Source: Eledone cirrhosa
Taxonomy: Eukaryota
Length of the DNA: 64,000 nucleotides
Reading direction: 5' to 3'
Assembly: GCA_964016885.1 (NCBI GenBank)
Contig: OZ024742.1
Location: forward strand, 263,128,001 to 263,192,000
Positions 3,763-57,453 of this stretch are shown here, one piece after another (the first letter of the stretch is position 1; each line of letters starts with the position of its first letter). Position numbers and translations under genes: made by a program. The notes beneath the pieces were generated by a model. That model was not told where the DNA came from. It made no database searches and saw nothing but the letters and a program-made list of their open reading frames with translations.

Positions 3763-3801
<39 letters not shown>

Positions 3802-3868
3802 AAAAACATGAGAAGAAAGAAGAATACTGCGTGGTTTACACTTGGGTTACATATGATAAAAATAGTCC

Positions 3869-3934
3869 TTCGTCAGTGATTTTCCAACCATCATTGGTAT
3901 TCTATCGCATTAAAAATCAGATACCTCAGGTTGG
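3869..3934 (-). ncRNA. Non-circularly permuted hammerhead, family A, mutated copy (GAAA reads AGAA)
   Basis: Same layout as 4393-4459, with perfect outer stem CCAACC/GGTTGG. Confidence 0.6.
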
Positions 3935-4392
3935 TGCGAGCAATAAAGAAAAAAAGTTATTGGGACCAGTAATCGCGTAAAGCGAGGGGGACAAGTAAAC
4001 AACATAGAAGGATAAAAACAAACCAAAGAAAGGGAATAAACAAGCAACATGGTAGTCCTGGTCAGCATAAGCTGGGTGGATTTCATGACCGTAAAGTAAA
4101 GACGTCCGACCTGAGTGAGATGTAAGCAAGAAGAGGCCCACTGTTAGCCAAACGGGTGGAAGTGAGAAGGGGGGAAACAGAGAGTGAGTGAGAGGAAGTG
4201 CGAGGAAGCAGTCAGTCGATAGAAAGTGTAACTGACAGAGGGGGCGAAAGAAGGGGGCGAAACAGAGAGAGCGGGGAAGCAGTAAGAGAGAAACAGACAA
4301 ACGCAGCTGAGGTCAATATATATAAAAAAACATGAGAAGAAAGAAGAATACTGCGTGGTTTGCACATGGGTTACATATGATAAAAATAGTCC

Positions 4393-4459
4393 TTCGTCAG
4401 TGATTTTTCCAACCATCATTGGTATTTCATCGCATTAAAAATCAGATACCTCAGGTTAG
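4393..4459 (-). ncRNA. Non-circularly permuted hammerhead with kink-turn, family A, intact core
   Basis: Minus strand: CTAACC-TGA-GGTA-TC^TGATTTTT-AATGCGA-T-GAAA-TACC-AATGAT-GGTTGG-AAAAATCA-CTGACGA-A. Confidence 0.75.
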
Positions 4460-4589
4460 TGCGAGCAATAATCTAAAAAAAGTAATTGGGACCAGTAATC
4501 GCGTAAAGCGAGGGGGACAAGTGAACAACATAGAAGGATATATATATATTATATATATATATACATATGTATATATATATATATATATA

Positions 4590-7720: not shown

Positions 7721-8375
7721 TCAGTCGGGGGGCCGGGGGGGGGGTCTGTAGTTTTTGTAATTTGCATAGTTCTTGTGCATGCAGTTAGGGGAGTGTTCCG
7801 AGATCTTGTTGAGGAGAGGGCCTTTGGCGAATAGAATCTCATAGCTCTCGGAGATACAGAGGTCACAGCAATTATGGCCTCCCGTGTATGATCGCGCTCT
7901 CTGGAGTAGTCTCCATTGGGTCTTGAAGGGGATGGAGTTCCTTTTTAGGTGCCAGATGTGGGCGGCGAGTGTAGTCTGGTTAGATTTGTCCGGGCGCCGG
8001 AACGAATGTGTGTGGGCGTACCAGCGAGTCTTAAAACTATTAGAAGTCATCCCGATGTACGAGTTTTTTTTTTCATCGGGGCCTGAGAGTACATCGCATA
8101 TATACACGAGATCTTTTTTTAGACAGTTGTTGTTGAGAGGACAGGTCGTCTTATCAGGGCAATTGCAGTTGCTATCGGTTGCTGGATGGGCTTCGGAAAA
8201 AGTAGACTTATTTAGCTTCTTGATGTTGTTGTTGGCTAAGTTTCTAGGTAGATTAGGTGTGGTAGAGTAAGAGAGTCTAATGGTATTCTTATTAACATAT
8301 GTTGGGTGGGGAAGTGTTTTTGTAAGAGAGTGAAGAAAATGAAGAAAATTTTTGCTACAAAATTTTTGCTACAAA
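7721..8375 (-). pseudogene. 5'-truncated Naiad-type PLE: end of RT thumb, CNC-C-C motif and GIY-YIG endonuclease
   Basis: KHFP..NKNTIRLSYS..CNCPDKTTCPLNNNCL..LVY..YIG..FKTRWYAH..CDLC..LLNK..CMH; frameshift near 8295. Confidence 0.85.
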
Positions 8376-12837
<4,462 letters not shown>

Positions 12838-12968: not shown

Positions 12969-13035
12969 TTTTATTATGCGCATTTCAAAAACAAACATCA
13001 TCAAACAATAATATTTGTGTTTTCATCAGATAAAA
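12969..13035 (-). ncRNA. Type I hammerhead ribozyme of the Naiad PLE (left arm)
   Basis: Reverse complement of 19770-19836. Confidence 0.85.
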
Positions 13036-14271
13036 CAGGAGAACATGATATGAAGGCCAAAAAAAACACTTGTTGATAGTGCAGTTTTAAATCAACATAT
13101 GAAAAGTGGTTTTAGATTGATGTGTGATATTGGGAAAAATATTTTATTTAGAGAGGGGGGGAGAGAAAAGGATGAAAAGGGAAGGAGATGAGAGGGAGAG
13201 ATGGGTGATAGAGAGAAAGAGATAGTTTTTATAACAGAGAGGAGATATATTTTATATAGAGGGGTTGAAAACCGTTGGAAGATACTGTATAAATTAAAAA
13301 TTTTGAAAATTAACGAAGGGAGGATATGTGCGAGGAAAAAATATATTATATTTAGGGAGGGGTGGGGGTGGAAAGGATGAAAAAAAGGGGAGGAGATGAG
13401 AGTGAAGGTGGAAAGGGAGAGATGGGTGATAGAGAGAAAGAGATAGTTTTTATAACTGAGAAAAAGATATAATGTTTTAATATAGAGAGGTTGGGAACCG
13501 TTGGAAGATAATGTATAAATTAAAGGAATTTGAAAATTAACGAAGGGAAATTATGTATGGAGATAGAGAGAAAAAAATAACGAAGGGAGATTATGTATGG
13601 AGATAGAGAGAAAAAAAAAAAATAATAATTGTGGGTGAATATTCAAAAGGAGAAATGTAGGAATTTTAAAATTAGCAAAGAGAAAAAGTTTATGTATAGG
13701 ATTTGAGAAAAATAATGTGAAGTTAGAGTTTTTATATTGAATTCATATGTATTAATAATGAGTTCGTTGATGGGGAGAAAAAAATAATAATAAATTAAGG
13801 ATGAAATTGAGATTAAAAAGATTTATGATAGAGAGAAAAAATAATAATGATTGCGGATGAATACTCAAAATGTCAAAAACAAATGTTATTGTTTTACGAG
13901 GAGATATAATGAGGGTGATGAGTAAACGGGTATTATAGAGTGTATAATGCCCTTTAAAGTAAGGTAGATGGGTATATTTTAAAGAATATATGAGTATATA
14001 TTAAAAAAAATATATAATAATAAATTAAGGATGAAATTGAGATTAAAAAGATTTATGATAGAGGGAAAAAAATAATAATGATTGCGGATGAATATTCAAA
14101 ATGTCAAAAACAAATGTTATTGTTTTACGAGAAGATAGGATGAGGTAAATGAGTAAACGAGTACTATAGAGTGTATAATGCCCTTTAAAGTAAGGTAGAT
14201 GGGTATATTTTAAAGAGGTGTATGTATATGTGCCTTTGAGAAAAGATTCTAAATTGATAAAGAATTGAATA

Positions 14272-16314
14272 TTAACTGTATACTTTGTGAAAAGTTCTAT
14301 GGAATTTATGCAGGCAGATGGAAAACAAATCCGAGCGTCTATTTATTATGGATTCTAGGTTAGAGATAATGGTAAATTTTTCATTTAGGCAGAGATTACA
14401 GATTTTAGATAGAGAACTGTTCAAGTACGAGGATGCAGAAGAAATCTTTTTCCAAAAGATGTTATATTTAATGTTTTTGTCTTTTAAGGACCATATGAGT
14501 TCTGAGAGAGCAGTGTTAGTTCTTTTAAGTTTGTATTTGAAAGATGAATGATGATTATAGAGACGAGCTTTAAAAGAGGTGGAAGTGGAGCCAAAATAGG
14601 TGAAGGAGTTGGTGCTAGTTATAATTTTACATTCATAAATTAAGTTTTTATCGAGGCAATGGTTGTTGAGAGGACATTTATTTTTAATGCGGCAGTTGCA
14701 ATTAGAGAGATTATTAATGAGTGATCTAGTGTTATCTATAGAAGGAATTGGATTGGAGAAGTTGTTTGCGATAGGAATAATAGGAATAATAGTTTCTTGA
14801 TTTAGAGTTGGATTATGAACATTTAGCGAAGTTGTGTTTGACGTTGCATTTGGGTTTACAGAAGTTAGCCTAGGGTTTACAATGACGTCAGGAGTACTAT
14901 TATTGTTATTATGAGATTCAATATTGGAAGGAAGAGATTTAGTATTTAATATTTTGTTGTTGTGTTTAGAAATGATGTTGGAAATATTGGAGGATGTAGA
15001 ATACGAAAATTTAATGGTGTGTTTGTTAAATATTTTACTATAGATATGTGAGGGAGGGAAGCATTTATTTAAGGCACTAAAAAATAATTTAGGAATATTG
15101 TTATTAATAGAGATGGAGAAAGGAGCATTATACCAGATTATGTTTTTGTATCTAGGTCTTTTATTAAAATTATTGGAATGGTTATGATTAAATATTCTAC
15201 TGTAAGTTTTCCTAGAATTTGTTTCTTTATTATATTTGATTTTATCTGGATAGCCGGCTTTAGAAAGTGCGTTATTATAGTAATTGGCGTTAGCATCAAA
15301 GATGTTTTTATTAGAAGATATGTTAGATATTCTATTTCCAATATTATTAACTATAGCATTCTTGATATTGGCAGGATGGTTAGATTTAAAGTTAACATAA
15401 TTAAGATTCTCATTGTTTTTATGGTAAGGGTAATATAGGCCAGTGTCAAGATTAAGAGATACATCCAAGAAATTAGCTAGTTTGGTACTATTATCAAATT
15501 CAATTTTTAGGTTATGTTGGTTAAAGAGATTACGTATATTGTTCTTAATAATATTAAGTTTAACTATATTGCAATTTAGGATAGTAAAGAGTCCATCGTC
15601 ACGATAAATTCCACCGCGAAGTTGAGGAATTTTCCGACTCAAAGAGTTCAAAATGAAGATACCAATTAAATCAGTCAATTGGGATGAATCGGATGCTCCC
15701 ATTGTGATGTCGAAGTTGTTAGAGGTATCGGCTCTGGTCCAATATTCGTTGTTGAACTCTAGGATGGTTTTACGTGCGGTGAGGATGATGTGAAGTTCAT
15801 CTGTGGTGATGTCAGAATATTTAAGTGCGAAAGATAGAGCATTATTGAGAAGTGAAGGCGAAATGGAGGAATAGTAGCTGGCAATATCGAATTGAATAAA
15901 TTTTAGTTTGTTTTTATTATCCAATTTGTTGAACCAGCCAATCACTTCAGAAGTACCAAACCATAAATTTAGGTTTAAAGAAGAGCAATTAGAACTAACC
16001 TGTGGGATAATCCTATCCAAGATGGCTTTACTAACAACCCCCAGATCAGATTTAGAGGGGGCGATTAATCTAACAGGTAGTTCAGTGCGAAAATTGTTTT
16101 TGTGATCCTTGAGATTTATCCTCGGAGTTCTTGGGAGGAATGGTTCGGTCTTTTTTTCAATGCCAAGTTTTGACATAATCTCATAGGCTTCAAGGTTTAT
16201 GCATTCTAAATTTTCATGGTTGGTTTTACGATACTTTTTCCTAAGTTCCTTTAGGATAAGGTTGTTATAATTATCCTTGGAAATACCATATAGGTTATTG
16301 GTTTTGTCGATCAT
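14272..16314 (-). CDS. PLE reverse transcriptase + GIY-YIG endonuclease (Naiad-type), 5'-truncated, uninterrupted
   Basis: DKTNNLY, LKDHK, FIQFDIASYY, FDITMG, YRDDG, FLDV, SNHP, CNCR..CPL..CL, LIY..YFG, CNLC, CLH. The start Met arises at the junction. Confidence 0.9.
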   Translation of the reverse strand: MIDKTNNLYGISKDNYNNLILKELRKKYRKTNHENLECINLEAYEIMSKLGIEKKTEPFLPRTPRINLKDHKNNFRTELPVRLIAPSKSDLGVVSKAILDRIIPQVSSNCSSLNLNLWFGTSEVIGWFNKLDNKNKLKFIQFDIASYYSSISPSLLNNALSFALKYSDITTDELHIILTARKTILEFNNEYWTRADTSNNFDITMGASDSSQLTDLIGIFILNSLSRKIPQLRGGIYRDDGLFTILNCNIVKLNIIKNNIRNLFNQHNLKIEFDNSTKLANFLDVSLNLDTGLYYPYHKNNENLNYVNFKSNHPANIKNAIVNNIGNRISNISSNKNIFDANANYYNNALSKAGYPDKIKYNKETNSRKTYSRIFNHNHSNNFNKRPRYKNIIWYNAPFSISINNNIPKLFFSALNKCFPPSHIYSKIFNKHTIKFSYSTSSNISNIISKHNNKILNTKSLPSNIESHNNNNSTPDVIVNPRLTSVNPNATSNTTSLNVHNPTLNQETIIPIIPIANNFSNPIPSIDNTRSLINNLSNCNCRIKNKCPLNNHCLDKNLIYECKIITSTNSFTYFGSTSTSFKARLYNHHSSFKYKLKRTNTALSELIWSLKDKNIKYNIFWKKISSASSYLNSSLSKICNLCLNEKFTIISNLESIINRRSDLFSICLHKFHRTFHKVYS

Positions 16315-18534
16315 CTTTTTAATTCCAGACGAAATCCTCCTTCCAACAAAAATCTAGCACAATTCGAGGAAGAATTAACTAAAATTATAAAAAATCTTAA
16401 ATTCAAGAGATACCCTTACAAAGGACAAGAGCACCTTGTAAATCTCAAGAACACAATCTCTAACCTAAATTCCTCAAAAAATGTTTTAGTCCACTCTGAC
16501 AAAACCAATAACCTATATGGTATTTCCAAGGATAATTATAACAACCTTATCCTAAAGGAACTTAGGAAAAAGTATCGTAAAACCAACCATGAAAATTTAG
16601 AATGCATAAACCTTGAAGCCTATGAGATTATGTCAAAACTTGGCATTGAAAAAAAGACCGAACCATTCCTCCCAAGAACTCCGAGGATAAATCTCAAGGA
16701 TCACAAAAACAATTTTCGCACTGAACTACCTGTTAGATTAATCGCCCCCTCTAAATCTGATCTGGGGGTTGTTAGTAAAGCCATCTTGGATAGGATTATC
16801 CCACAGGTTAGTTCTAATTGCTCTTCTTTAAACCTAAATTTATGGTTTGGTACTTCTGAAGTGATTGGCTGGTTCAACAAATTGGATAATAAAAACAAAC
16901 TAAAATTTATTCAATTCGATATTGCCAGCTACTATTCCTCCATTTCGCCTTCACTTCTCAATAATGCTCTATCTTTCGCACTTAAATATTCTGACATCAC
17001 CACAGATGAACTTCACATCATCCTCACCGCACGTAAAACCATCCTAGAGTTCAACAACGAATATTGGACCAGAGCCGATACCTCTAACAACTTCGACATC
17101 ACAATGGGAGCATCCGATTCATCCCAATTGACTGATTTAATTGGTATCTTCATTTTGAACTCTTTGAGTCGGAAAATTCCTCAACTTCGCGGTGGAATTT
17201 ATCGTGACGATGGACTCTTTACTATCCTAAATTGCAATATAGTTAAACTTAATATTATTAAGAACAATATACGTAATCTCTTTAACCAACATAACCTAAA
17301 AATTGAATTTGATAATAGTACCAAACTAGCTAATTTCTTGGATGTATCTCTTAATCTTGACACTGGCCTATATTACCCTTACCATAAAAACAATGAGAAT
17401 CTTAATTATGTTAACTTTAAATCTAACCATCCTGCCAATATCAAGAATGCTATAGTTAATAATATTGGAAATAGAATATCTAACATATCTTCTAATAAAA
17501 ACATCTTTGATGCTAACGCCAATTACTATAATAACGCACTTTCTAAAGCCGGCTATCCAGATAAAATCAAATATAATAAAGAAACAAATTCTAGGAAAAC
17601 TTACAGTAGAATATTTAATCATAACCATTCCAATAATTTTAATAAAAGACCTAGATACAAAAACATAATCTGGTATAATGCTCCTTTCTCCATCTCTATT
17701 AATAACAATATTCCTAAATTATTTTTTAGTGCCTTAAATAAATGCTTCCCTCCCTCACATATCTATAGTAAAATATTTAACAAACACACCATTAAATTTT
17801 CGTATTCTACATCCTCCAATATTTCCAACATCATTTCTAAACACAACAACAAAATATTAAATACTAAATCTCTTCCTTCCAATATTGAATCTCATAATAA
17901 CAATAATAGTACTCCTGACGTCATTGTAAACCCTAGGCTAACTTCTGTAAACCCAAATGCAACGTCAAACACAACTTCGCTAAATGTTCATAATCCAACT
18001 CTAAATCAAGAAACTATTATTCCTATTATTCCTATCGCAAACAACTTCTCCAATCCAATTCCTTCTATAGATAACACTAGATCACTCATTAATAATCTCT
18101 CTAATTGCAACTGCCGCATTAAAAATAAATGTCCTCTCAACAACCATTGCCTCGATAAAAACTTAATTTATGAATGTAAAATTATAACTAGCACCAACTC
18201 CTTCACCTATTTTGGCTCCACTTCCACCTCTTTTAAAGCTCGTCTCTATAATCATCATTCATCTTTCAAATACAAACTTAAAAGAACTAACACTGCTCTC
18301 TCAGAACTCATATGGTCCTTAAAAGACAAAAACATTAAATATAACATCTTTTGGAAAAAGATTTCTTCTGCATCCTCGTACTTGAACAGTTCTCTATCTA
18401 AAATCTGTAATCTCTGCCTAAATGAAAAATTTACCATTATCTCTAACCTAGAATCCATAATAAATAGACGCTCGGATTTGTTTTCCATCTGCCTGCATAA
18501 ATTCCATAGAACTTTTCACAAAGTATACAGTTAA
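16309..18534 (+). CDS. PLE reverse transcriptase + GIY-YIG endonuclease (Naiad-type), 5'-truncated, uninterrupted
   Basis: Frame is open upstream of the tracked ATG at 16630 (FNSRRNPP..FEEEL..VHSDKTNNLY); protein identical to the left arm over the shared span. Confidence 0.9.
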   Translation, partial: DHLFNSRRNPPSNKNLAQFEEELTKIIKNLKFKRYPYKGQEHLVNLKNTISNLNSSKNVLVHSDKTNNLYGISKDNYNNLILKELRKKYRKTNHENLECINLEAYEIMSKLGIEKKTEPFLPRTPRINLKDHKNNFRTELPVRLIAPSKSDLGVVSKAILDRIIPQVSSNCSSLNLNLWFGTSEVIGWFNKLDNKNKLKFIQFDIASYYSSISPSLLNNALSFALKYSDITTDELHIILTARKTILEFNNEYWTRADTSNNFDITMGASDSSQLTDLIGIFILNSLSRKIPQLRGGIYRDDGLFTILNCNIVKLNIIKNNIRNLFNQHNLKIEFDNSTKLANFLDVSLNLDTGLYYPYHKNNENLNYVNFKSNHPANIKNAIVNNIGNRISNISSNKNIFDANANYYNNALSKAGYPDKIKYNKETNSRKTYSRIFNHNHSNNFNKRPRYKNIIWYNAPFSISINNNIPKLFFSALNKCFPPSHIYSKIFNKHTIKFSYSTSSNISNIISKHNNKILNTKSLPSNIESHNNNNSTPDVIVNPRLTSVNPNATSNTTSLNVHNPTLNQETIIPIIPIANNFSNPIPSIDNTRSLINNLSNCNCRIKNKCPLNNHCLDKNLIYECKIITSTNSFTYFGSTSTSFKARLYNHHSSFKYKLKRTNTALSELIWSLKDKNIKYNIFWKKISSASSYLNSSLSKICNLCLNEKFTIISNLESIINRRSDLFSICLHKFHRTFHKVYS

Positions 18535-19769
18535 TATTCAATTCTTTATCAATTTAGAATCTTTTCTCAAAGGCACATATACATACACCTCTTTAAAATA
18601 TACCCATCTACCTTACTTTAAAGGGCATTATACACTCTATAGTACTCGTTTACTCATTTACCTCATCCTATCTTCTCGTAAAACAATAACATTTGTTTTT
18701 GACATTTTGAATATTCATCCGCAATCATTATTATTTTTTTCCCTCTATCATAAATCTTTTTAATCTCAATTTCATCCTTAATTTATTATTATATATTTTT
18801 TTTAATATATACTCATATATTCTTTAAAATATACCCATCTACCTTACTTTAAAGGGCATTATACACTCTATAATACCCGTTTACTCATCACCCTCATTAT
18901 ATCTCCTCGTAAAACAATAACATTTGTTTTTGACATTTTGAGTATTCATCCGCAATCATTATTATTTTTTCTCTCTATCATAAATCTTTTTAATCTCAAT
19001 TTCATCCTTAATTTATTATTATTTTTTTCTCCCCATCAACGAACTCATTATTAATACATATGAATTCAATATAAAAACTCTAACTTCACATTATTTTTCT
19101 CAAATCCTATACATAAACTTTTTCTCTTTGCTAATTTTAAAATTCCTACATTTCTCCTTTTGAATATTCACCCACAATTATTATTTTTTTTTTTCTCTCT
19201 ATCTCCATACATAATCTCCCTTCGTTATTTTTTTCTCTCTATCTCCATACATAATTTCCCTTCGTTAATTTTCAAATTCCTTTAATTTATACATTATCTT
19301 CCAACGGTTCCCAACCTCTCTATATTAAAACATTATATCTTTTTCTCAGTTATAAAAACTATCTCTTTCTCTCTATCACCCATCTCTCCCTTTCCACCTT
19401 CACTCTCATCTCCTCCCCTTTTTTTCATCCTTTCCACCCCCACCCCTCCCTAAATATAATATATTTTTTCCTCGCACATATCCTCCCTTCGTTAATTTTC
19501 AAAATTTTTAATTTATACAATATCTTCCAACGGTTTTCAACCCCTCTATATAAAATATATCTCCTCTCTGTTATAAAAACTATCTCTTTCTCTCTATCAC
19601 CCATCTCTCCCTCTCATCTCCTTCCCTTTTCATCCTTTTCTCTCCCCCCCTCTCTAAATAAAATATTTTTCCCAATATCACACATCAATCTAAAACCACT
19701 TTTCATATGTTGATTTAAAACTGCACTATCAACAAGTGTTTTTTTTGGCCTTCATATCATGTTCTCCTG

Positions 19770-19836
19770 TTTTATCTGATGAAAACACAAATATTATTGT
19801 TTGATGATGTTTGTTTTTGAAATGCGCATAATAAAA
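19770..19836 (+). ncRNA. Type I hammerhead ribozyme of the Naiad PLE (right arm)
   Basis: TTTTAT-CTGATGA-long stem II-GAAA-TGCGCA-TA-ATAAAA; palindromic ATGCGCAT; predicted cut after 19830. Confidence 0.85.
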
Positions 19837-19876
19837 TATATTGAACTCCTTTAACCATCTTTTGATCTTATATTAT

Positions 19877-23741: not shown

Positions 23742-23861
23742 TTATTAAAATAACAGATTAAAATTTAAGCAAAGAATCGCTGCTTTCACCCTTAACGGAA
23801 TCTTCTGAAACCTTATCGAGCCCTCTTTGGATTTTAGTCTTCAAATTTATTATTATTACTA

Positions 23862-23919
<58 letters not shown>

Positions 23920-24004
23920 TTAAAAGTGACAAAGGCGCTGTGTGGTTACTAATAAATATTATTTAGAAAGCGTAAGAGAAACACAAACATAAGGACAGTT
24001 CCCG

Positions 24005-24070
24005 CTCGTCGGCTGTCTGCTGTGGGTCGCTGATGTTTTTGACGCATTAAAGACAGTACATCTCACCACA
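24005..24070 (-). ncRNA. Non-circularly permuted hammerhead, family B (core CCGACGA; GAAA mutated)
   Basis: TGTGG-TGA-GATG-TA-CTGTCT-ttaatgcgt-C-AAAAA-CATC-AGCGAC-CCACA-gc-AGACAG-CCGACGA-G. Confidence 0.6.
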
Positions 24071-24624
24071 CTGAGTTGATAACTAAGAGGAATAATTATC
24101 AGGGGAAAAAACAACAAAAACTGAGACAATAGCGAAGAGAACGACAGAAAAAGAAAATAAACAAAAGAAGAACATACTGATAGCGAGGGGGAAATACGAG
24201 ACAGTAGTACATGTAAGTTGCAGTAACCGATGGGAGAGAGGGAGGAGTTAAAAAGGAGACCGAACGTAAGCCCTGAATCCGTATTAACAGCACGCGGGAG
24301 AGCGAAGAGAAAATGGAAGTGAAAGGGGGGAAGTGGTAAGGGAGCAGAGAGAGAGGGGGAGGAGAAAGGTGATAGAGGATAAGAAAGAAACAGAATAAGT
24401 GAATGGGAGAGAGAGAGAGAGAGAGAGAGAGAAAGGGGGGAAGGAAAAGAGTTAACCCAAAATGGCAGAACTTAAGTTCAAAACCAGAATTAACAACAAG
24501 CGAGATAGAGTGGAGGTTACAGCAATAAATTAATATGAATTAAAAGTGACAAAGGCGCTGTGTGGTTACTAATAAATATTATTTAGAAAACGTAAGAGAA
24601 ATACAAACATGAGGACAATTCCCG

Positions 24625-24689
24625 CTCTTCGGCTGTCTGCTGTGGGTCGCTGATGTTTTGACGCATTAAAGACAGTACATCTCACCACA
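24625..24689 (-). ncRNA. Non-circularly permuted hammerhead, family B (core CCGAAGA; GAAA reads AAAA)
   Basis: Same layout; the G-to-A change lies at a CpG. Confidence 0.6.
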
Positions 24690-26362
24690 CTGAGTTGATA
24701 ACTAAGAGGAAGAGTTATTAGGGAAGAAAACAACAACAAAAACAGAGATGATAGCGAAGAGAACGACAAATATATATTTAGTTCAAGATAAAAAAAGATG
24801 GCACACACATTAAACCATTACACTGTCTTATTAGCTTCATGTATATTTCTACATGCTAGCATGGTACCCTTCTTCTTCGTCTTCGTCTTCTTGCTAATAA
24901 AAGAAACCATTATTACTGGCTTTAGTTCATTACGATCTGAGTTAATATTCTGAGATCGACTTTCATTCTTCCGGGTTCGATAAAATGGTGTCAATTTAAT
25001 CGAATAATTCCGTCCCCACATTTCTGGCTATGTGTTTGAATTGGAAACAACACATCATATAAAAAGGCGAGGGGAGAGAGCAAAAGAGATACAAAGAGAC
25101 TCAATTGGTTGAAGGGAGAGTACACAAACTGAGTAGAGTGGCAGACAGTGAGATAGAGAGGCAAATACGTATAGCATTAGTACAAAGTTAAATTTCATTT
25201 TCAACCTTCTTTTTTTCATCAATGGAATAGACATATATATACTTTTCCTGAATTTATTTGTTTCGTTTTCTCAAATCGGTAGAAATATATATTTTTAGCG
25301 TATATTAAATTTGTAATTTTTTTTTTCAATCTACGGGGAGATATGTACATTTTACATGTTTGCATAATCAATGTTTAAGTTGTAGCTACGTAATTATCGT
25401 ATATCTGTAATGTTACAGGTGTAGTGAATTCATTTATATTTCATTTACGCATTTTTATTTATTTATCTACTGTTACTAACAGTGTACTATGGCGAGTAAC
25501 ATTCTGGTATCCTTATATTACGTGTCCTCAATAATGTATTGTCTTTGTATGTATGAATATATGTATCTGTGTGTATTACAAAAAAGAAAGAGAAAAAAAT
25601 TATATAGCGAAAGCAAGGGAAAATGTAGAGAGTGACAGACTCTACAACCCAGCTGCACCGAGTGGACAAAATGGCGACGGTATTGCCACGAAGAACAGCC
25701 AGTGACCTCCGCCGCATCAGACACTCTACCTCGCGGAGCCCTTGCTCAGGCGGGATGTACTCCTCCTAGTTTTGCAGAGGAAGACAGCAGTTCGGGGTTC
25801 GAGGACACAAGTCGTCTTAACGACGACTGGCATTAAAAGAAAACGGTTGATCAAATCTAGGTATTTAGTTATCTCTCTTTCGCGTTACTGGCGCAAACAC
25901 CTGGTTCGTGCCTGAAACGACAAATGTTAGAGGTGGGGAACGTGTCGCAGCACGTGGCGTCCCAGATCAGTGATTTACCTCCCTCGCTTTTTGAAAAGGG
26001 CATCCCTTATAATTTATTGAGTTCAAGGAATAGATTCCAGGCTCTTTATAAATCAGCATAAAGAGAGAGAAGTACACATAGGGATGTGTTCAATCATAGG
26101 AGATCAAAAACCGCCAGAGTGATGAACATATTGTCTACGAAAGGAAAGGTGAATACAAATCAATTAAAAGAATAAATATATATATATACATATGCTTATG
26201 TGTGTGTGTGTGTGTGTGTGTGTATACACACATTTTTATATTGTTCGTGAGTTTCTCTTTCGCTTGAAAATTTCAACCGTGAGGAGAACATTGTAACTCT
26301 TCCAATAGAAGAGCAGTGTTTTGGCGTATGACACTATCCTAAAAAAACTAAATTAATATACA

Positions 26363-27884: not shown

Positions 27885-28184
27885 GTATATATATGTATAT
27901 ATATATATATGTGTGTATATATATATGTATATATATATATATGTATATATATGTATATATATTGGTAAACGGAATAGAAAATGCTGACAAATTGTTCACA
28001 GTTGAAAAATGGTTTAATTAGGAATAAAAGAGTATTAGTAATTGTATGGGTTAGTATTCAGTTGTGGTTTTAAGTTTTTAAGTTTTTACCGGTTGCGCAT
28101 TTCTAAATGCTTTTCAAAAATAATTTTGAGATAGAGTGTCCGTGTTGTTTGCTCTGATCAGAGCAAACAACACGGACACTCTAT

Positions 28185-29658
28185 CTCAAGGAGGGCAAGG
28201 CTCATGGAGAAGATGGAGTGGCATCAGAGGTGATGAAGAGGTGTGATTTTGATGATATCATCCTGGGGTTCTGTAACGGGGCACTGGAGAAAAGAGTTGC
28301 CCCGAATCAGTGGAGGATCAGTAACATCGTCCCAGTGCCAAAGAAGGGAGATCTCTCTAACACCAACAACTACCGGGGGATCTCACTGGCGTCACTTGTG
28401 GCAAAGACCCTCAACGGGATGATTCTTAACAGGATCCAGCCTGAGATGGAGAAGAAGCTCAGGGACAACCAGAACGGCTTCAGAGAGGGTAGATCAACCA
28501 CTAGTCACATCCTGATGCTGAGGAGGATATTAGAGGGAGCTAGAGCAAAGTGCCTTCCTGCGGTCATGGTTTTCATTGACTTTAGGAAGGCCTTTGATTC
28601 TGTGGACCGTTACTGCCTGATGAAGATCTTACAGGCTTATGGAATCCCCAAGAGGATAGTGGACCTGATATCACTGCTCTACACCAACACCAAAGCCCAA
28701 GTCATTACACCTGATGGGATGACAGAGTTCTTTGAGATACTGGCTGGAGTGCTCCAGGGAGATACATTGGCTCCCTATCTTTTTGTCATCGTAGTGGACT
28801 ATTGTATGCGCCTTGCACTGGGGAAACACCAGGACTCTGGCTTTACTGTAGCACCGGCTCAGAGCAGGAGAGTTAGGGCGAAAAAGGTATCGGATGCTGA
28901 ATTTGCCGACGACATAGTTTTGGTGACAAATACAGTGAAGGAGGCAGAGGATTTGATGCGGGAGGTTGAGACTGTGTCGATGAGTGTGGGGCTGAGAATG
29001 AATGAGACTAAAACAAAATATCTGGTAGAGAATGTTGAGAAGCCAGAGGGGATCACTAATGTAGGCGGGAAGCCGCTGGAATTGGTTGAGGACTTCCTGT
29101 ATTTGGGAGCAAGGATTGGGAATACGGAGGATGATGTGGTTGAGAGGAAGAGCAAGGCCTGGGCGGCGTGCCACAGCTTGAGATCGGTGTGGAAGTCGGA
29201 CCTTCGTAGAGACCTGAAAATCCGCCTCTTCATTGCTGTAGTGGAGTCTGTGCTGCTGTATGGGTCTGAGACTTGGACACTGACCAAGAAACTCACTCAG
29301 ATGGTGGATGGGTGCTACACGAGAATGCTGAGGATGGCTCTGAACATTAATCAGTATACACTGAGGATGAAAAACTCAGAGCTGTATGGGAGCATCCCAA
29401 AAGTCAGCTCAAAAGTGACACAGAGGAGACTGAGGTTGGCTGGACATGCTCACCGACATCCAGAGTTGACATTGCACTCAGTGCTCCTTTGGGAGCCCCT
29501 ACATGGACAGACTAGAAGAGGAAGACCAAGGTTAACGTATGTTGATGCCCTAAGGACAGACACTGGTCTGTTGGAGATGCAGGACATGGCAGCGATAATG
29601 AGGGACAGAGACCGCTGGAGAGAACTCGTCCATGGATCTCGGGAATTTTACCCGCCTT

Positions 29659-29660
<2 letters not shown>
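28185..29660 (+). mobile_element. 5'-truncated RTE-clade LINE with an intact RT frame (ORF 28218-29660)
   Basis: [55 protein letters not shown]. Confidence 0.93.
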
Positions 29661-37610: not shown

Positions 37611-37790
37611 TGTCCCATTTGACGAAAGTCGATCGACTGTCGATATATGTTTTCTTCTGTTTTTTTCTTCTTTTTCTCTTCTGTTTCTTTTTCTTTTTCT
37701 CTTCTGTTTATTTTCTTTTTCTGTCGTTCTCTTCACTATCGTCTCTTTTTTTTATTCTCTAATAACTATTCTTCTGAGTTATTAACGCAG

Positions 37791-37855
37791 TGTGGTGAGA
37801 TGTACTGTCTTTAATGCGACGAAACATCAGCGCCCCACAGCAGACAGCCAAAGAG
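37791..37855 (+). ncRNA. Non-circularly permuted hammerhead, family B (GAAA intact; core CCAAAGA)
   Basis: TGTGG-TGA-GATG-TA-CTGTCT-ttaatgcga-C-GAAA-CATC-agcgcc-CCACA-gc-AGACAG-CCAAAGA-G. Confidence 0.62.
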
Positions 37856-37976
37856 CGGGAATTGTCCTTAAGTTTGCGTTTCTCTTATGTTTTTCTAAAC
37901 AATATATATGTATGTGTGTATATGTATCTGTGTATATGAATAAATATATATATATGGTTTTCTGGAGTATAATATT

Positions 37977-54299: not shown

Positions 54300-57200
54300 A
54301 TAAATATCTTTATGTCGTTTGGAAGCCTCGACAATGCAAATGGGTAAATCTCCGGGTAACAAGGTCCGGTGGTGGAGAGAGAGATGTAAGTGGGTGTACG
54401 CTGAGATGCGTGGTGTGTATAAGATGTGTGAGATGTGTAGAATGAAGGGAAGAGTATAAAGGATAAAAATAAAAATAACAACACAAGAGAGAATTACCTT
54501 GGGAGAGATTTAATAGTCCCTATATATTTCGGATTCACATCCATCAACTGGGGTTTTTTCCGGGGTGGGGGAAAAGGTTGTCTGTCGGACAAGTCCGGAT
54601 AGCGTCTTTCGCTGTTTGTTGATTTGAATATCTGAGGTATTCGGCGGAGCGCACGTGCGCGTGAAATGGGGTCGGTCGTACAGAGGTCAGCGGCCGAATG
54701 AGGGAGTGGGATGGCGCTAGCTGTCAGTCCATTCTCTGCCTGTTTGTTAAATGTTACTGTGTGTGTGTGTGCGTGTGTTGTTGTCTCGCTTGAGTGTGTG
54801 TGTGTGTTGTTGCCTTGTTCATCTGTATTGGCAGTGTGGTATGTTCGTATGGTGGAATGCTACTGTGTGTGTGTGTGTGTGTAGTTGTCTCGTTTGCGTG
54901 TGTGTGTGTGTGCGTGTGTTGTGTGTTGTTGCATCGCTTGTTAACTTAAACCAGCCATTTCATTTCGCTTCTCTCTGATCGGTTGTTTATTTGCGGTTGC
55001 AGTCGTTTGATAAAAAGCGCTTCCTTGATACGTAACGTGCCGACGTTTCTTTCAGTCGCTAGAATTGTGACAATGGGCCTTCCGTCTTTGTTTCCGCATT
55101 TGTCTATGTGTTTCCGGAAAGACGAGGCCCTGGTTTTTGTGTGTTCCTTGATCCGGATGTGCAAAGGTCGAATTGTGCTACCTATGTAGTATTGGTTGCA
55201 CCTGTCACATTATACACGACGTATGTGCGTAGGCAACAGTTAGCATGGCGTATCGGGCAGTCTCTGAGGGAGCATGCGTCAGTAGATTTTTCGGGTTTCC
55301 TGGAGAGGCATCTTCGCAGAGAGGGGCCCGAGTGGGCCAGGTGGATGTCGAGGCCCTCCCTCCGTGTAGCCTTGCGGATAGCGTTGGTAGTTTTCTCGCC
55401 CAGGTGTGGCATTTTAAGGAAGCCTGGGTGCTTCTCTGTCTCTTGCATCTGTGTCTCCTATTCTGTCTGTGATCGAGGTAGGGTACCCGTTCGTCTCCAG
55501 CACCTCGAGGAATCGCTTGGTATGAGTGACACCACTCGCGGGATCGCTGCATCTGTTTTTGATTCGTGCGATCTCGTTCGTGATGTATCCTCTTTTGGCA
55601 CTGTTAGGGAGTGCGGACTTGTAGTGAACGAATAGGTCCCTGCAGGCTGCCTTTCTGTAGAAGTTGCAGTGGATCCCTCCTTGTTCCGTGATGTTGATTC
55701 GGAAGTCGAGGAGGGCAAGTGTCCCGTCTTCGTTGGGGTGTTCAACACTGAAGTCAATGTTCTCGTCCGTGTTGTTGAACGTCTCATAGATTCTGTTCGC
55801 CGTGTCTTGGGAAGATGTGAGGATGAGGATATCGTCCACGTATCTTGAGAAAAAGGCTACGGCGTTGGGGTGGCAGGCGTTGAGTGCCTTGCGTTCGAGG
55901 TTGTCCATGTAGGAGATCGCTAGCACACCTGATAGACTTGATCCCATGGGCAATCCCGAGGTTTGTTGGTATATTTGGTCAAGGAATCCGAAGTAGGTGT
56001 TGTCGACGACGATGGATAGGAGTTGGTGGATGTCAGTGGTGGTGAGCCCGAAGCAGTGTAGGTCGGTGGATTGGATGCGTTCCATTAGTATATTGACGGC
56101 CGGGAGTGCCGGGACCGAGGTGTAGAGAGCAACTACATCAAGGCTGAAGGCATATCTGTTATTCCTTCTGGTGTCGGGATCCATTTGATGCAGGCGCTTC
56201 AACACCTCCTCGGAGCTGTTAACGTGTCCCGGCAAGGTGTCTAAGATCGGTTTGAGTATTCTGGCTAGGAGCCATGAAATTTTGTAGAGTGGTCCCTCCA
56301 CGCTCGATACGATGGGCCTGATTTTCAGGTCGGGTCCCTGTTTGTGTGTTTTCACGAGGTGGTAGAAAGCGGGTAGTCTGCTGTTCCTCGTGAGGAGGTT
56401 GTATCTCAGCTTCTTCGGGAGCTTCCGCCGGTCGCAGATGTCGGTCCAGGCGGAGTTGATGTGTTCTTCTATCTGCGCGGGAGTGATTCCCGTGACCTTT
56501 GAGTAGAGGTTGTCATCGTCAAGGTGTTGGAGGGCCAGGGTGTTGTAGGCCTCTCTGCTGATGACGCAGAATTCTTTTCCCTTGTCGGAGGGGAGATAGA
56601 TGAGGTTCTTCGATTTTAGGTTGGAGAGAGTGGTGAGTTGAGATTTGGTGAGGTTATGTGTTGTGCGTGTGTGTGTTTGTGAAGTATATCCGAGATGGAG
56701 TGTTTTAGCCTGATGAGTTTAGTGTCGAGTTTGTGGTTGTTGTGTGGGGGGTGGAGTGGGTTGTCAGGGTGGTAAGTGGGGAACTTGGGGTGGGTTGTGT
56801 CGGCACTGTTATTATCTGTGGCGCTGTTGATAGCGGTCACCCATTTAAGTTGGTAAGCGGCTCGACAAAAGTTGGCCTCAATGTTGAGTTTGAGTCTGTC
56901 GTCGAGACGTTGTGTGACGATGAACTTAGGTCCGAGGTGTAGGAGTTTCAGCTCGTCGCTCGTTAGAGTGCCGGTTAGGTCGGTGACCAGGTGCGTCGCA
57001 TCGTTGAGGTATGGCTCGGTGTTGGTGGTTGCGGCGGTGGCGGTTGTTAAGTTGTTGTTTTCCACGTGGTTCTGGTCCGTCTGTTCGTTAGTGTCGATGT
57101 TCTCGTTGTGGCGTTTCGACAAGATCCACTCATATTTTCGCTTGAGCCGTTTTTTCTCGGATTGGACTCTGGAGTGGTAGCACTGGTCGATTGCTTTAGG

Positions 57201-57395
57201 GATTTTCAGGAGCAAGTCTCCAGGTGCTATTGGCAGTCGATGTGTCCGCTTATGGACGTGTAATTGGCGGATGAGATGTCTCAGGATCTGTTTAATACAC
57301 GTGCGATGTATGCGGTTAGTGGTGTTTTGGAAGGCTGGTGTACGTAGGCTTACTGGTAAGCGGATGTTCTTGATGGTGTTGGGGATGACATCGTT
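54300..57395 (-). pseudogene. Decayed Penelope-like element (Neptune/Nematis-like): RT, Cys-rich linker, GIY-YIG, 3'UTR
   Basis: PSDKG, RPIVS, SLDVVALYTSVP, GLPMGSSLS, RYVDD, NGYP, CSLRDCPI..CC, VVY..YIG..RIKEH, EALFI..PQINN; frameshifts near 56630, 55460 and 55203. Confidence 0.88.
54518..54553 (-). ncRNA. Degenerate minimal hammerhead in the PLE 3'UTR
   Basis: CCC-CAGTTGAT-GGAT-gtga-ATCC-GAAA-TATA-TA-GGG; the core deviates from CUGANGA. Confidence 0.5.
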
Positions 57396-57453
57396 TATTT
57401 ATATATATTTATATATATATATTTATATATATATATATATTTATATATATATT

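What the first reader, a model, noticed from the sequence alone, without database searches (positions are those of the whole stretch)
24005..24689. A second diverged family has the same rearranged hammerhead with compensatory changes in every helix
Seen: the family B consensus from 24005-24070, 24625-24689 and 37791-37855 is TGTGG-TGA-GATG-TA^CTGTCT-TTAATGCG(A/T)-C-GAAA-CATC-AGCGAC-CCACA-GC-AGACAG-CCGA(C/A)GA-G. Compared with family A, the outer stem CCAACC/GGTTGG becomes TGTGG/CCACA, stem III GGTA/TACC becomes GATG/CATC, stem I TGATTT/AAATCA becomes CTGTCT/AGACAG, and the lone stem II pair A-U becomes G-C. Spacings are identical and the linker TTAATGCG is retained. Each B copy has one core G-to-A change at a CpG, but the copies complement each other. 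Inference: selection acts on the structure, the core has a U4C variant, and the conserved linker may make tertiary contacts.
Basis: partly seen in the sequence, partly recalled or inferred. Interest (0 to 1): 0.88.

Follow-up and report, generated by a model that had tools for sequence, protein, structure and literature searches.

The report
Knotted hammerhead ribozyme in animal retroelements
A small jumping repeat in this animal genome carries the parts of a hammerhead self-cutting RNA in a scrambled, knotted order; the same fold sits at the tails of two unrelated kinds of jumping gene, and it likely cuts its own RNA, though cutting has not been tested.

Summary
The three window copies are decayed and predicted inactive. 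Across 18 copies from several families, 20 of 22 pairs show compensatory change (0 of 500 shuffles). The order is non-circular (site, GAAA, CUGANGA), a class described by Eckert 2023 from environmental RNA. Their active CSG-1 has the same connectivity and UUAA linker, but here the chain opens inside stem II. The same fold follows the ORF of R2-group (HERO-like) LINEs, in this genome (16 of 30 loci) and in metagenome contigs, and ends several published Naiad consensuses said to lack hammerheads. Family B is most likely a non-coding, retrozyme-like passenger; its partner is unresolved. U4C is a known natural variant, derived in B. Cleavage is untested. The scan noted this fold before, on other DNA of this genome and in other genomes.

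The parts
23917..24770 (-). Family B insertion: one 619-nt unit (cut site to cut site) plus about 95 nt of upstream unit and a 140-nt end; non-coding; 3' end abuts (TA)n at 23860-23916
24625..24695 (-). Upstream ribozyme copy (G12A, leader G-to-T; predicted inactive); predicted cut between 24676 and 24675
24691..24695 (-). 5' leader strand; pairs with 24661-24665 to extend stem II (ACGCA in the family majority, ACTCA here)
24685..24690 (-). [quoted passage not shown]
24682..24684 (-). Short strand (UGA) of the kink-turn-like loop; long strand AGCGAC at 24646-24651
   Evidence: k-turn rules recalled
24670..24681 (-). Block S: stem III strand GATG, U16.1-A17 (GUA triplet), stem I strand CTGTCT
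24652..24669 (-). UUAA linker, stem II strand TGCGT-C, and block G: GAAA (AAAA here) with stem III strand CATC
24625..24638 (-). Block C: stem I strand AGACAG, core CCGAAGA (U4C), G10.1
24005..24076 (-). Downstream ribozyme copy (G12A plus one extra A; predicted inactive); predicted cut between 24057 and 24056
37700..37909 (+). 5'-truncated family B insertion; ribozyme at 37785-37855 (G5A; predicted inactive), predicted cut between 37804 and 37805; ends at a TA-rich repeat
3800..4540 (-). Family A insertion, 525-nt unit, two ribozyme copies; predicted cuts at 4445/4444 and 3920/3919

Best explanation
Family B is a dispersed non-coding repeat whose RNA is predicted to fold into a hammerhead ribozyme with its three blocks in non-circular order and would cut itself after GUA; it was likely copied around the genome by the enzymes of an autonomous retroelement. 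Shown by sequence: the core letters, five helices and their covariation; insertions of one unit plus part of another; decay of the genomic copies. Inferred: stems I and III form around the core; stem II is one pair from the core strand plus five pairs from the 5' leader; a 6-bp outer helix ties the far ends of stems I and II together and bends back to stem III through a kink-turn-like loop. A transcript running through two tandem copies would be cut twice to release a unit-length RNA, which a host ligase could close into a circle as shown for ordinary animal retrozymes; reverse transcription round such a circle would give the more-than-one-unit insertions. U4C likely slows cutting without abolishing it.
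For: Core majority intact. Pattern of core letters at this spacing: 878 matches against 43 for the reversed control. In 53 copies chosen only on core letters and stems I and III, the untested helices also pair: leader helix at least 4 of 5 in 47, outer helix at least 4 of 5 in 47, stem II pair in 48. Alignment A1, 18 rows: 88.6% of cells paired, 20 of 22 pairs compensatory, 0 of 500 shuffles, slid controls at most 48%. Alignment A3 with 7 metagenome rows: 92.5% paired. A pattern with no pairing demand gave 119 metagenome matches; 10 pair in this register with unrelated sequences and all 10 have GA on the short loop strand, which was not asked for. CSG-1 and CSG-2 of Eckert 2023, which cleave in vitro, have the same connectivity, 6-bp stems I and II and the UUAA linker (compared by eye). 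Partial tandems, inverted copies, TA-rich 3' flanks and two 3' ends about 40 nt apart.
Against: Cleavage was not tested. Only 3 of 31 family B copies are fully intact and one genomic place matches the 67-nt majority stretch exactly. 5' ends of insertions do not pile up at the predicted cut, which fits a circular template but equally an uncut one; for one Penelope-like element hammerhead cleavage was not needed for insertion in vitro (PMC11167929). The minimum-energy fold of the intact copy is a different structure and no better than shuffles (z 1.3; the program cannot form pseudoknots). Rows are related, so the shuffle control is not a probability. U4C lowers activity in vitro (PMC3088659). 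No autonomous element sharing sequence with B was found.
Confidence: 0.78

Rival explanations
1. The pairs are right but form between two copies: one copy supplies its leader and CUGANGA block to the other copy's cut site, as a swapped dimer.
For: Copies come in tandem. Some animal retrozyme hammerheads need dimers (PMC7229834). Stem III and the outer helix are joined on both strands, which closes a tight ring; Eckert raise a similar geometry question. Covariation cannot tell cis from trans.
Against: CSG-1 and CSG-2, with the same connectivity and a 2-nt link between outer helix and stem III, cleave during transcription. A kink-turn-like loop sits exactly where a bend is needed. Many LINE copies carry a single fold.
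Confidence: 0.2
2. The fold is conserved as a protein-binding signal at the 3' end for reverse transcription, and cutting is weak or no longer matters, above all in family B with U4C.
For: The fold sits in 3' UTRs 45-150 nt from element ends. No pile-up of 5' ends at the cut. U4C is fixed in B. Cleavage was dispensable in one Penelope-like element in vitro.
Against: All catalytic letters other than position 4 are invariant across unrelated families while every helix changes, as expected if the chemistry itself is under selection.
Confidence: 0.15
3. Family B is mobilised by a Naiad-type Penelope-like element rather than by the R2-group LINE (a question of partner, inside the best explanation).
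For: Two 3' ends about 40 nt apart, inverted copies and (TA)n flanks match features described for Naiads (PMC8557442). The fold can be read by eye at the 3' ends of Naiad_Obim, Naiad_Ovul and several others.
Against: No element with an N-terminal GIY-YIG was seen among 50 own-genome loci. The exact B register is found behind LINE ORFs (the pattern demanded that register). LINE copies here also show a partial tandem, an inverted piece and TA flanks.
Confidence: 0.5
4. Chance resemblance within an ordinary repeat.
For: The core is short; Rfam gives no hammerhead match for the intact copy.
Against: 0 hits in 100 simulated windows; 878 against 43; covariation in helices that were not used for selection.
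Confidence: 0.02

Closest known systems
Type-CSG hammerheads CSG-1 and CSG-2 (Eckert et al. 2023, PMC10085705; outline, sections 7, 13-16, part 1 of 18, and supplement passages seen)
   Same: Same circular connectivity: outer helix next to stem I, stem II strand running straight into the outer helix, 6-bp stems I and II, UUAA between stem I and stem II strands (by eye).
   Different: CSG-1 is open between stem III and the outer helix; family B is closed there by a kink-turn-like loop and open inside the stem II strand, after pair 10.1-11.1. The paper assumes blocks cannot be interrupted. CSG-1 is environmental; B is in an animal repeat and has U4C.
Type-SGC hammerheads (HRIMA-1 and variants, same paper)
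   Same: [quoted passage not shown]
   Different: In HRIMA-1 stem II and the joining helix are completed by sequence 3' of CUGANGA; here by a 5' leader. No core deviation at position 4 was reported among 583 sequences.
Non-LTR retrozymes of animals (PMC7229834, passages; bioRxiv 10.64898/2026.07.22.740005, parts 1-2 of 5)
   Same: Non-coding tandem units of a few hundred bases with one hammerhead per unit, dispersed, proposed to use Penelope-like enzymes.
   Different: Described with type I hammerheads in ordinary order and found with type I descriptors; circles were shown there and are untested here.
Naiad Penelope-like elements (Craig et al. 2021, PMC8557442; passages and supplement passages)
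   Same: Tail, inverted copies, (TA)n bias; several consensus 3' ends read by eye as the same fold, two of them in CSG order with an unbroken stem II.
   Different: Reported to lack canonical hammerheads (8 'half core' cases); they are coding; helix lengths differ; no Naiad tied to B in this genome.
R2-group, non-site-specific LINEs (HERO-like; clade name recalled and taken from earlier notes, not tested by a tree)
   Same: The fold begins within about 100 nt of the ORF end in 16 of 30 own-genome loci and in 6 of 10 metagenome hits.
   Different: They encode RT (Pfam RVT_1, best PDB matches R2). In them the leader G pairs with C11.1 and the base after CUGANGA is unpaired. No sequence similarity to B.

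Membership tests
Hammerhead ribozyme | Core CUGANGA, GAAA and UH | tested here: met
   Majority CCGAAGA, GAAA, GUA; U4C is a reported natural variant
Hammerhead ribozyme | Stems I, II, III abutting the core, with covariation | tested here: met
   the core-adjacent stem II pair occurs as C-G, U-A, A-U and U-G
Hammerhead ribozyme | Site-specific self-cleavage | not testable with these tools
   needs an in vitro assay
Classical types I, II, III | Blocks in circular order C, G, S | tested here: not met
   order is S, G, C in every copy; no Rfam hammerhead match
Type-SGC (Eckert 2023) | 5'-to-3' order S, G, C | tested here: met
Type-SGC (Eckert 2023) | Block C unbroken: whole stem II strand directly after CUGANGA | tested here: not met
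   one pair only; the other five come from the 5' leader
Type-SGC/CSG (Eckert 2023) | [quoted passage not shown] | tested here: met
   outer helix, 5 of 6 pairs compensatory in A3
Kink-turn (rules recalled) | 3-nt bulge followed by tandem G-A, A-G pairs | tested here: inconclusive
   Fits A, B and 10 of 10 metagenome hits on the unselected strand (GA on the other strand was in the pattern). Sister families have U at one position or a plain 3-nt bulge. Bending not testable here.
Non-LTR retrozyme | Non-coding tandem units, one hammerhead per unit | tested here: met
   619-nt and 525-nt units; no retroelement ORF in the unit
Non-LTR retrozyme | Type I hammerhead | tested here: not met
   order S, G, C
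Non-LTR retrozyme | Expressed as linear and circular monomers | not testable with these tools
   no RNA run could be laid
Naiad-derived element | Sequence link to an element with N-terminal GIY-YIG and RT | tested here: inconclusive
   none among 50 GIY-YIG loci or in the flanks examined; no Naiad protein was on hand as a query
HERO-like LINE-derived element | Shared 3' sequence with an RLE-type LINE | tested here: inconclusive
   same fold and position, but no nucleotide similarity with the one LINE family compared

The most novel reading that the evidence does not exclude
One knotted hammerhead scaffold, opened at different points, is shared by environmental RNAs (CSG-1), R2-group LINEs, Naiad Penelope-like elements and their non-coding passengers. 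It cuts the element RNA into unit lengths that circularise, so a LINE lineage and the 'ribozyme-less' Naiads insert from RNA circles, and the stem II strand can be split or handed wholly to a 5' leader.
Probability: 0.35. Interest if true: 0.9.

Novelty: new variant of a known kind. Interest (0 to 1): 0.74.

Why it matters
Non-circularly permuted hammerheads were described from environmental sequence of unknown hosts. Finding the same scaffold in many families of an animal genome, with a break inside a block assumed to be indivisible, widens the known topologies and shows why standard descriptors miss it. It offers a direct test of why Naiads seemed to lack hammerheads and why some LINE copies insert as slightly more than one unit. 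Family B adds covariation in every helix and a fixed U4C core, a natural test of how much catalytic slack this scaffold tolerates. I did not find this described in ten full-text searches; most subscription papers are not in that library.

Tried and rejected
Rfam: the 150 listed of 668 window matches were microsatellite artefacts; no hammerhead match for the intact copy or for the ordinary-order motif at 19771-19833. Repeat finder swamped by (TA)n. Single-strand folding uninformative for a pseudoknot. Allele counts from BLAST sets rejected as biased to the query copy and replaced by exact patterns. Sequencing runs: no RNA holder listed; three contig sets of one sample were laid and used only for majority letters, not copy number. 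Search for a Naiad partner in the own genome: GIY-YIG scan, flanks of 120 or more loci, and two searches from a Naiad-like copy gave none. Viral contigs: no relative of a Penelope-like RT. Pile-up of 5' ends at the cut: not seen. Lower variation of non-CpG core letters within B (3 of 279 against 51 of 1209 for paired letters) was not used as evidence, because base composition and BLAST selection confound it. The original paper on tandem fish LINEs was not held. Ordinary-order assembly across tandem copies was considered; it needs loops of about 600 nt and does not explain single-copy LINE tails.

Full report
Observation. A descriptor with pairing finds 4 hits in the window and none in 100 simulated windows. 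The two tandem B copies share G12A and a leader change, so they are one insertion, and the 24005 copy has an extra A in GAAA. All three window copies have a broken core and are predicted inactive.

Family majority. A 101-nt query had 480 candidates in the genome, of which 40 were scored. BLAST sets lean to the query's alleles, so I counted with exact patterns that leave the disputed letters open. G12 is present in 28 of 32 matches. At positions 4-5 the counts are CG 19, CA 6, TG 5, GG 1 of 31, the symmetric decay expected from an ancestral CpG. Contigs of three DNA runs from one sample agree: about 91% of depth reads G12, about 98% the majority leader letters. B is old: 3 of 31 aligned copies are fully intact and one place matches the 67-nt majority stretch exactly.

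Anatomy. From 5' to 3': leader (5 nt), outer helix strand (6), UGA, stem III strand, UA and the predicted cut, stem I strand (6), UUAA, five bases that pair with the leader, C11.1, GAAA, stem III strand, a 6-nt loop strand, outer helix strand, one base, stem I strand, CCGAAGA, G10.1. I noted it before looking at earlier scan notes.

Covariation. A pattern of core letters at this spacing, with stem III not starting in T so as to leave family A out, gave 878 matches against 43 for the reversed control and led to several sister families. Of 53 copies chosen only on core letters and stems I and III, the leader helix pairs at 4 or 5 of 5 in 47, the outer helix in 47 and the stem II pair in 48 (21 and 8 of these fall in the main A and B clusters). 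Alignment A1 holds 14 of the 18 cluster representatives (L008, L056, L145 and L169 dropped for truncation or indels) plus four added copies: 88.6% of cells pair, 20 of 22 pairs have a change on both sides, 0 of 500 shuffles reach this, and slid controls reach at most 48%. Rows are related and some are decayed, so these are not probabilities. B's nearest sisters (L124, L161, L162) keep CUGAUGA, so U4C is derived. It is a known natural variant that lowers activity in vitro yet supports viroid infectivity, and a one-pair stem II is also known (PMC3088659, passages).

Independent sequences. Eleven passed a filter on stems I and III; one is AT-rich and poor. The other ten (two identical) have stem I at 6 of 6, the outer helix at 4 or more of 5, and in nine the leader helix at 4 or more of 5; they share only 33-43 of 76 letters with B where compared. 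All ten have GA on the short loop strand, which was not asked for and fits a kink-turn (rules recalled; the lead came from note e1-8671611). In most of them a leader G pairs with C11.1 and the base after CUGANGA is unpaired, so stem II comes wholly from the leader; in A, B and one further family the first pair comes from the core strand.

Host elements. In six of the ten, the C-terminus of an R2-group LINE protein ends within about 100 nt of the predicted cut; none of the other 109 loci matches (one of the six is the query itself for one protein but is also hit by own-genome proteins, one is hit only by that query, and two others have under 60 nt of upstream DNA). The own genome holds this LINE: RT by Pfam, best solved matches R2. 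The same fold parses in 16 of the top 30 loci about 60 nt behind the ORF, and one locus is a 611-nt tail piece followed by a full unit. The name HERO is recalled, not tested. Separately, Craig 2021 report that Naiads lack canonical hammerheads. Reading their supplement by eye, the ends of Naiad_Obim, Naiad_Ovul, three near-identical consensuses and two others fit the S-G-C fold with a leader-made stem II, and two more fit C-S-G order with an unbroken stem II (60 of 62 CTGATGA places seen, many of them coding or canonical). No Naiad was found in this genome among 50 GIY-YIG loci, and B shares no sequence with the LINE family compared. B's two 3' ends about 40 nt apart, inverted copies and TA flanks favour a Penelope-like partner; its register favours the LINE. 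The partner is open.

Mechanism. Shown: fold by covariation, tandem organisation, decay. Inferred: cleavage after GUA, by analogy with CSG-1 and CSG-2, which share the connectivity and the UUAA linker and cleave at 0.004 and 0.026 per minute; release and ligation of unit-length RNA, by analogy with animal retrozymes; copying round a circle. The 5' ends of insertions scatter on both sides of the upstream cut and do not pile up there, which fits a circle but also an uncut template, and cleavage was dispensable for one Penelope-like element in vitro. A swapped dimer cannot be excluded by covariation.

Novelty. The non-circular class is published (PMC10085705); its main text does not mention octopus, cephalopods or molluscs, and its supplement text has no hit for Octopus or Metazoa. 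The break inside block C departs from that paper's assumption. Ten searches found no description in animal retroelements; one 2026 paper cites the class only in passing. Earlier notes of this scan report the fold in this genome and others; they are unchecked notes and were used as leads. Verdict: real, a new variant of a known kind, cleavage untested; interest 0.74.

Noticed in passing
window 13612-19860: Penelope-like element: 746-aa open frame at 16294-18534 (+) with an inverted copy whose 2,697-nt arms are 100% complementary, suggesting a very recent insertion. No Pfam match; RT and C-terminal endonuclease read from motifs only.
   Followed up: partly
window 19771-19833 (+), mirrored near 12970-13035 (-): Ordinary-order type I hammerhead-like motif with a minimal palindromic stem III at the end of that element (read by eye); Rfam does not detect it.
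   Followed up: partly
window 23745-23860: Short repeat between two (TA)n tracts with summed contig depth near 900,000 against about 6 for single-copy DNA; on the minus strand it shows CAGAAGA, a short hairpin and GAAA in ordinary order.
   Followed up: no
L125, L132, L148, L166: A sister family in which the loop between stem III and the outer helix is a plain 3-nt bulge in a perfect helix, the linker is 3 nt, and the leader supplies the whole stem II.
   Followed up: partly
L345:4487-8696 (G000:C2): R2-group LINE inserted as a 611-nt piece of its own tail followed directly by a full 3.6-kb unit, each with the rearranged hammerhead.
   Followed up: partly
L333, L337, L339, L342, L343: A second, older RLE-type LINE family whose 3' UTR seems to carry the same fold with a shorter linker.
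   Followed up: no
L272:780-1292: In a metagenome contig the fold lies between the end of one LINE ORF and what may be the start of the next, i.e. a possible tandem.
   Followed up: no
window 7721-8368 (-), 55414-57398 (-), 28158-29660 (-), 9800-10600 (-): Further retroelement remnants: two Penelope-like pieces (RVT_1 match for 55417-56718) and two related LINE copies.
   Followed up: no
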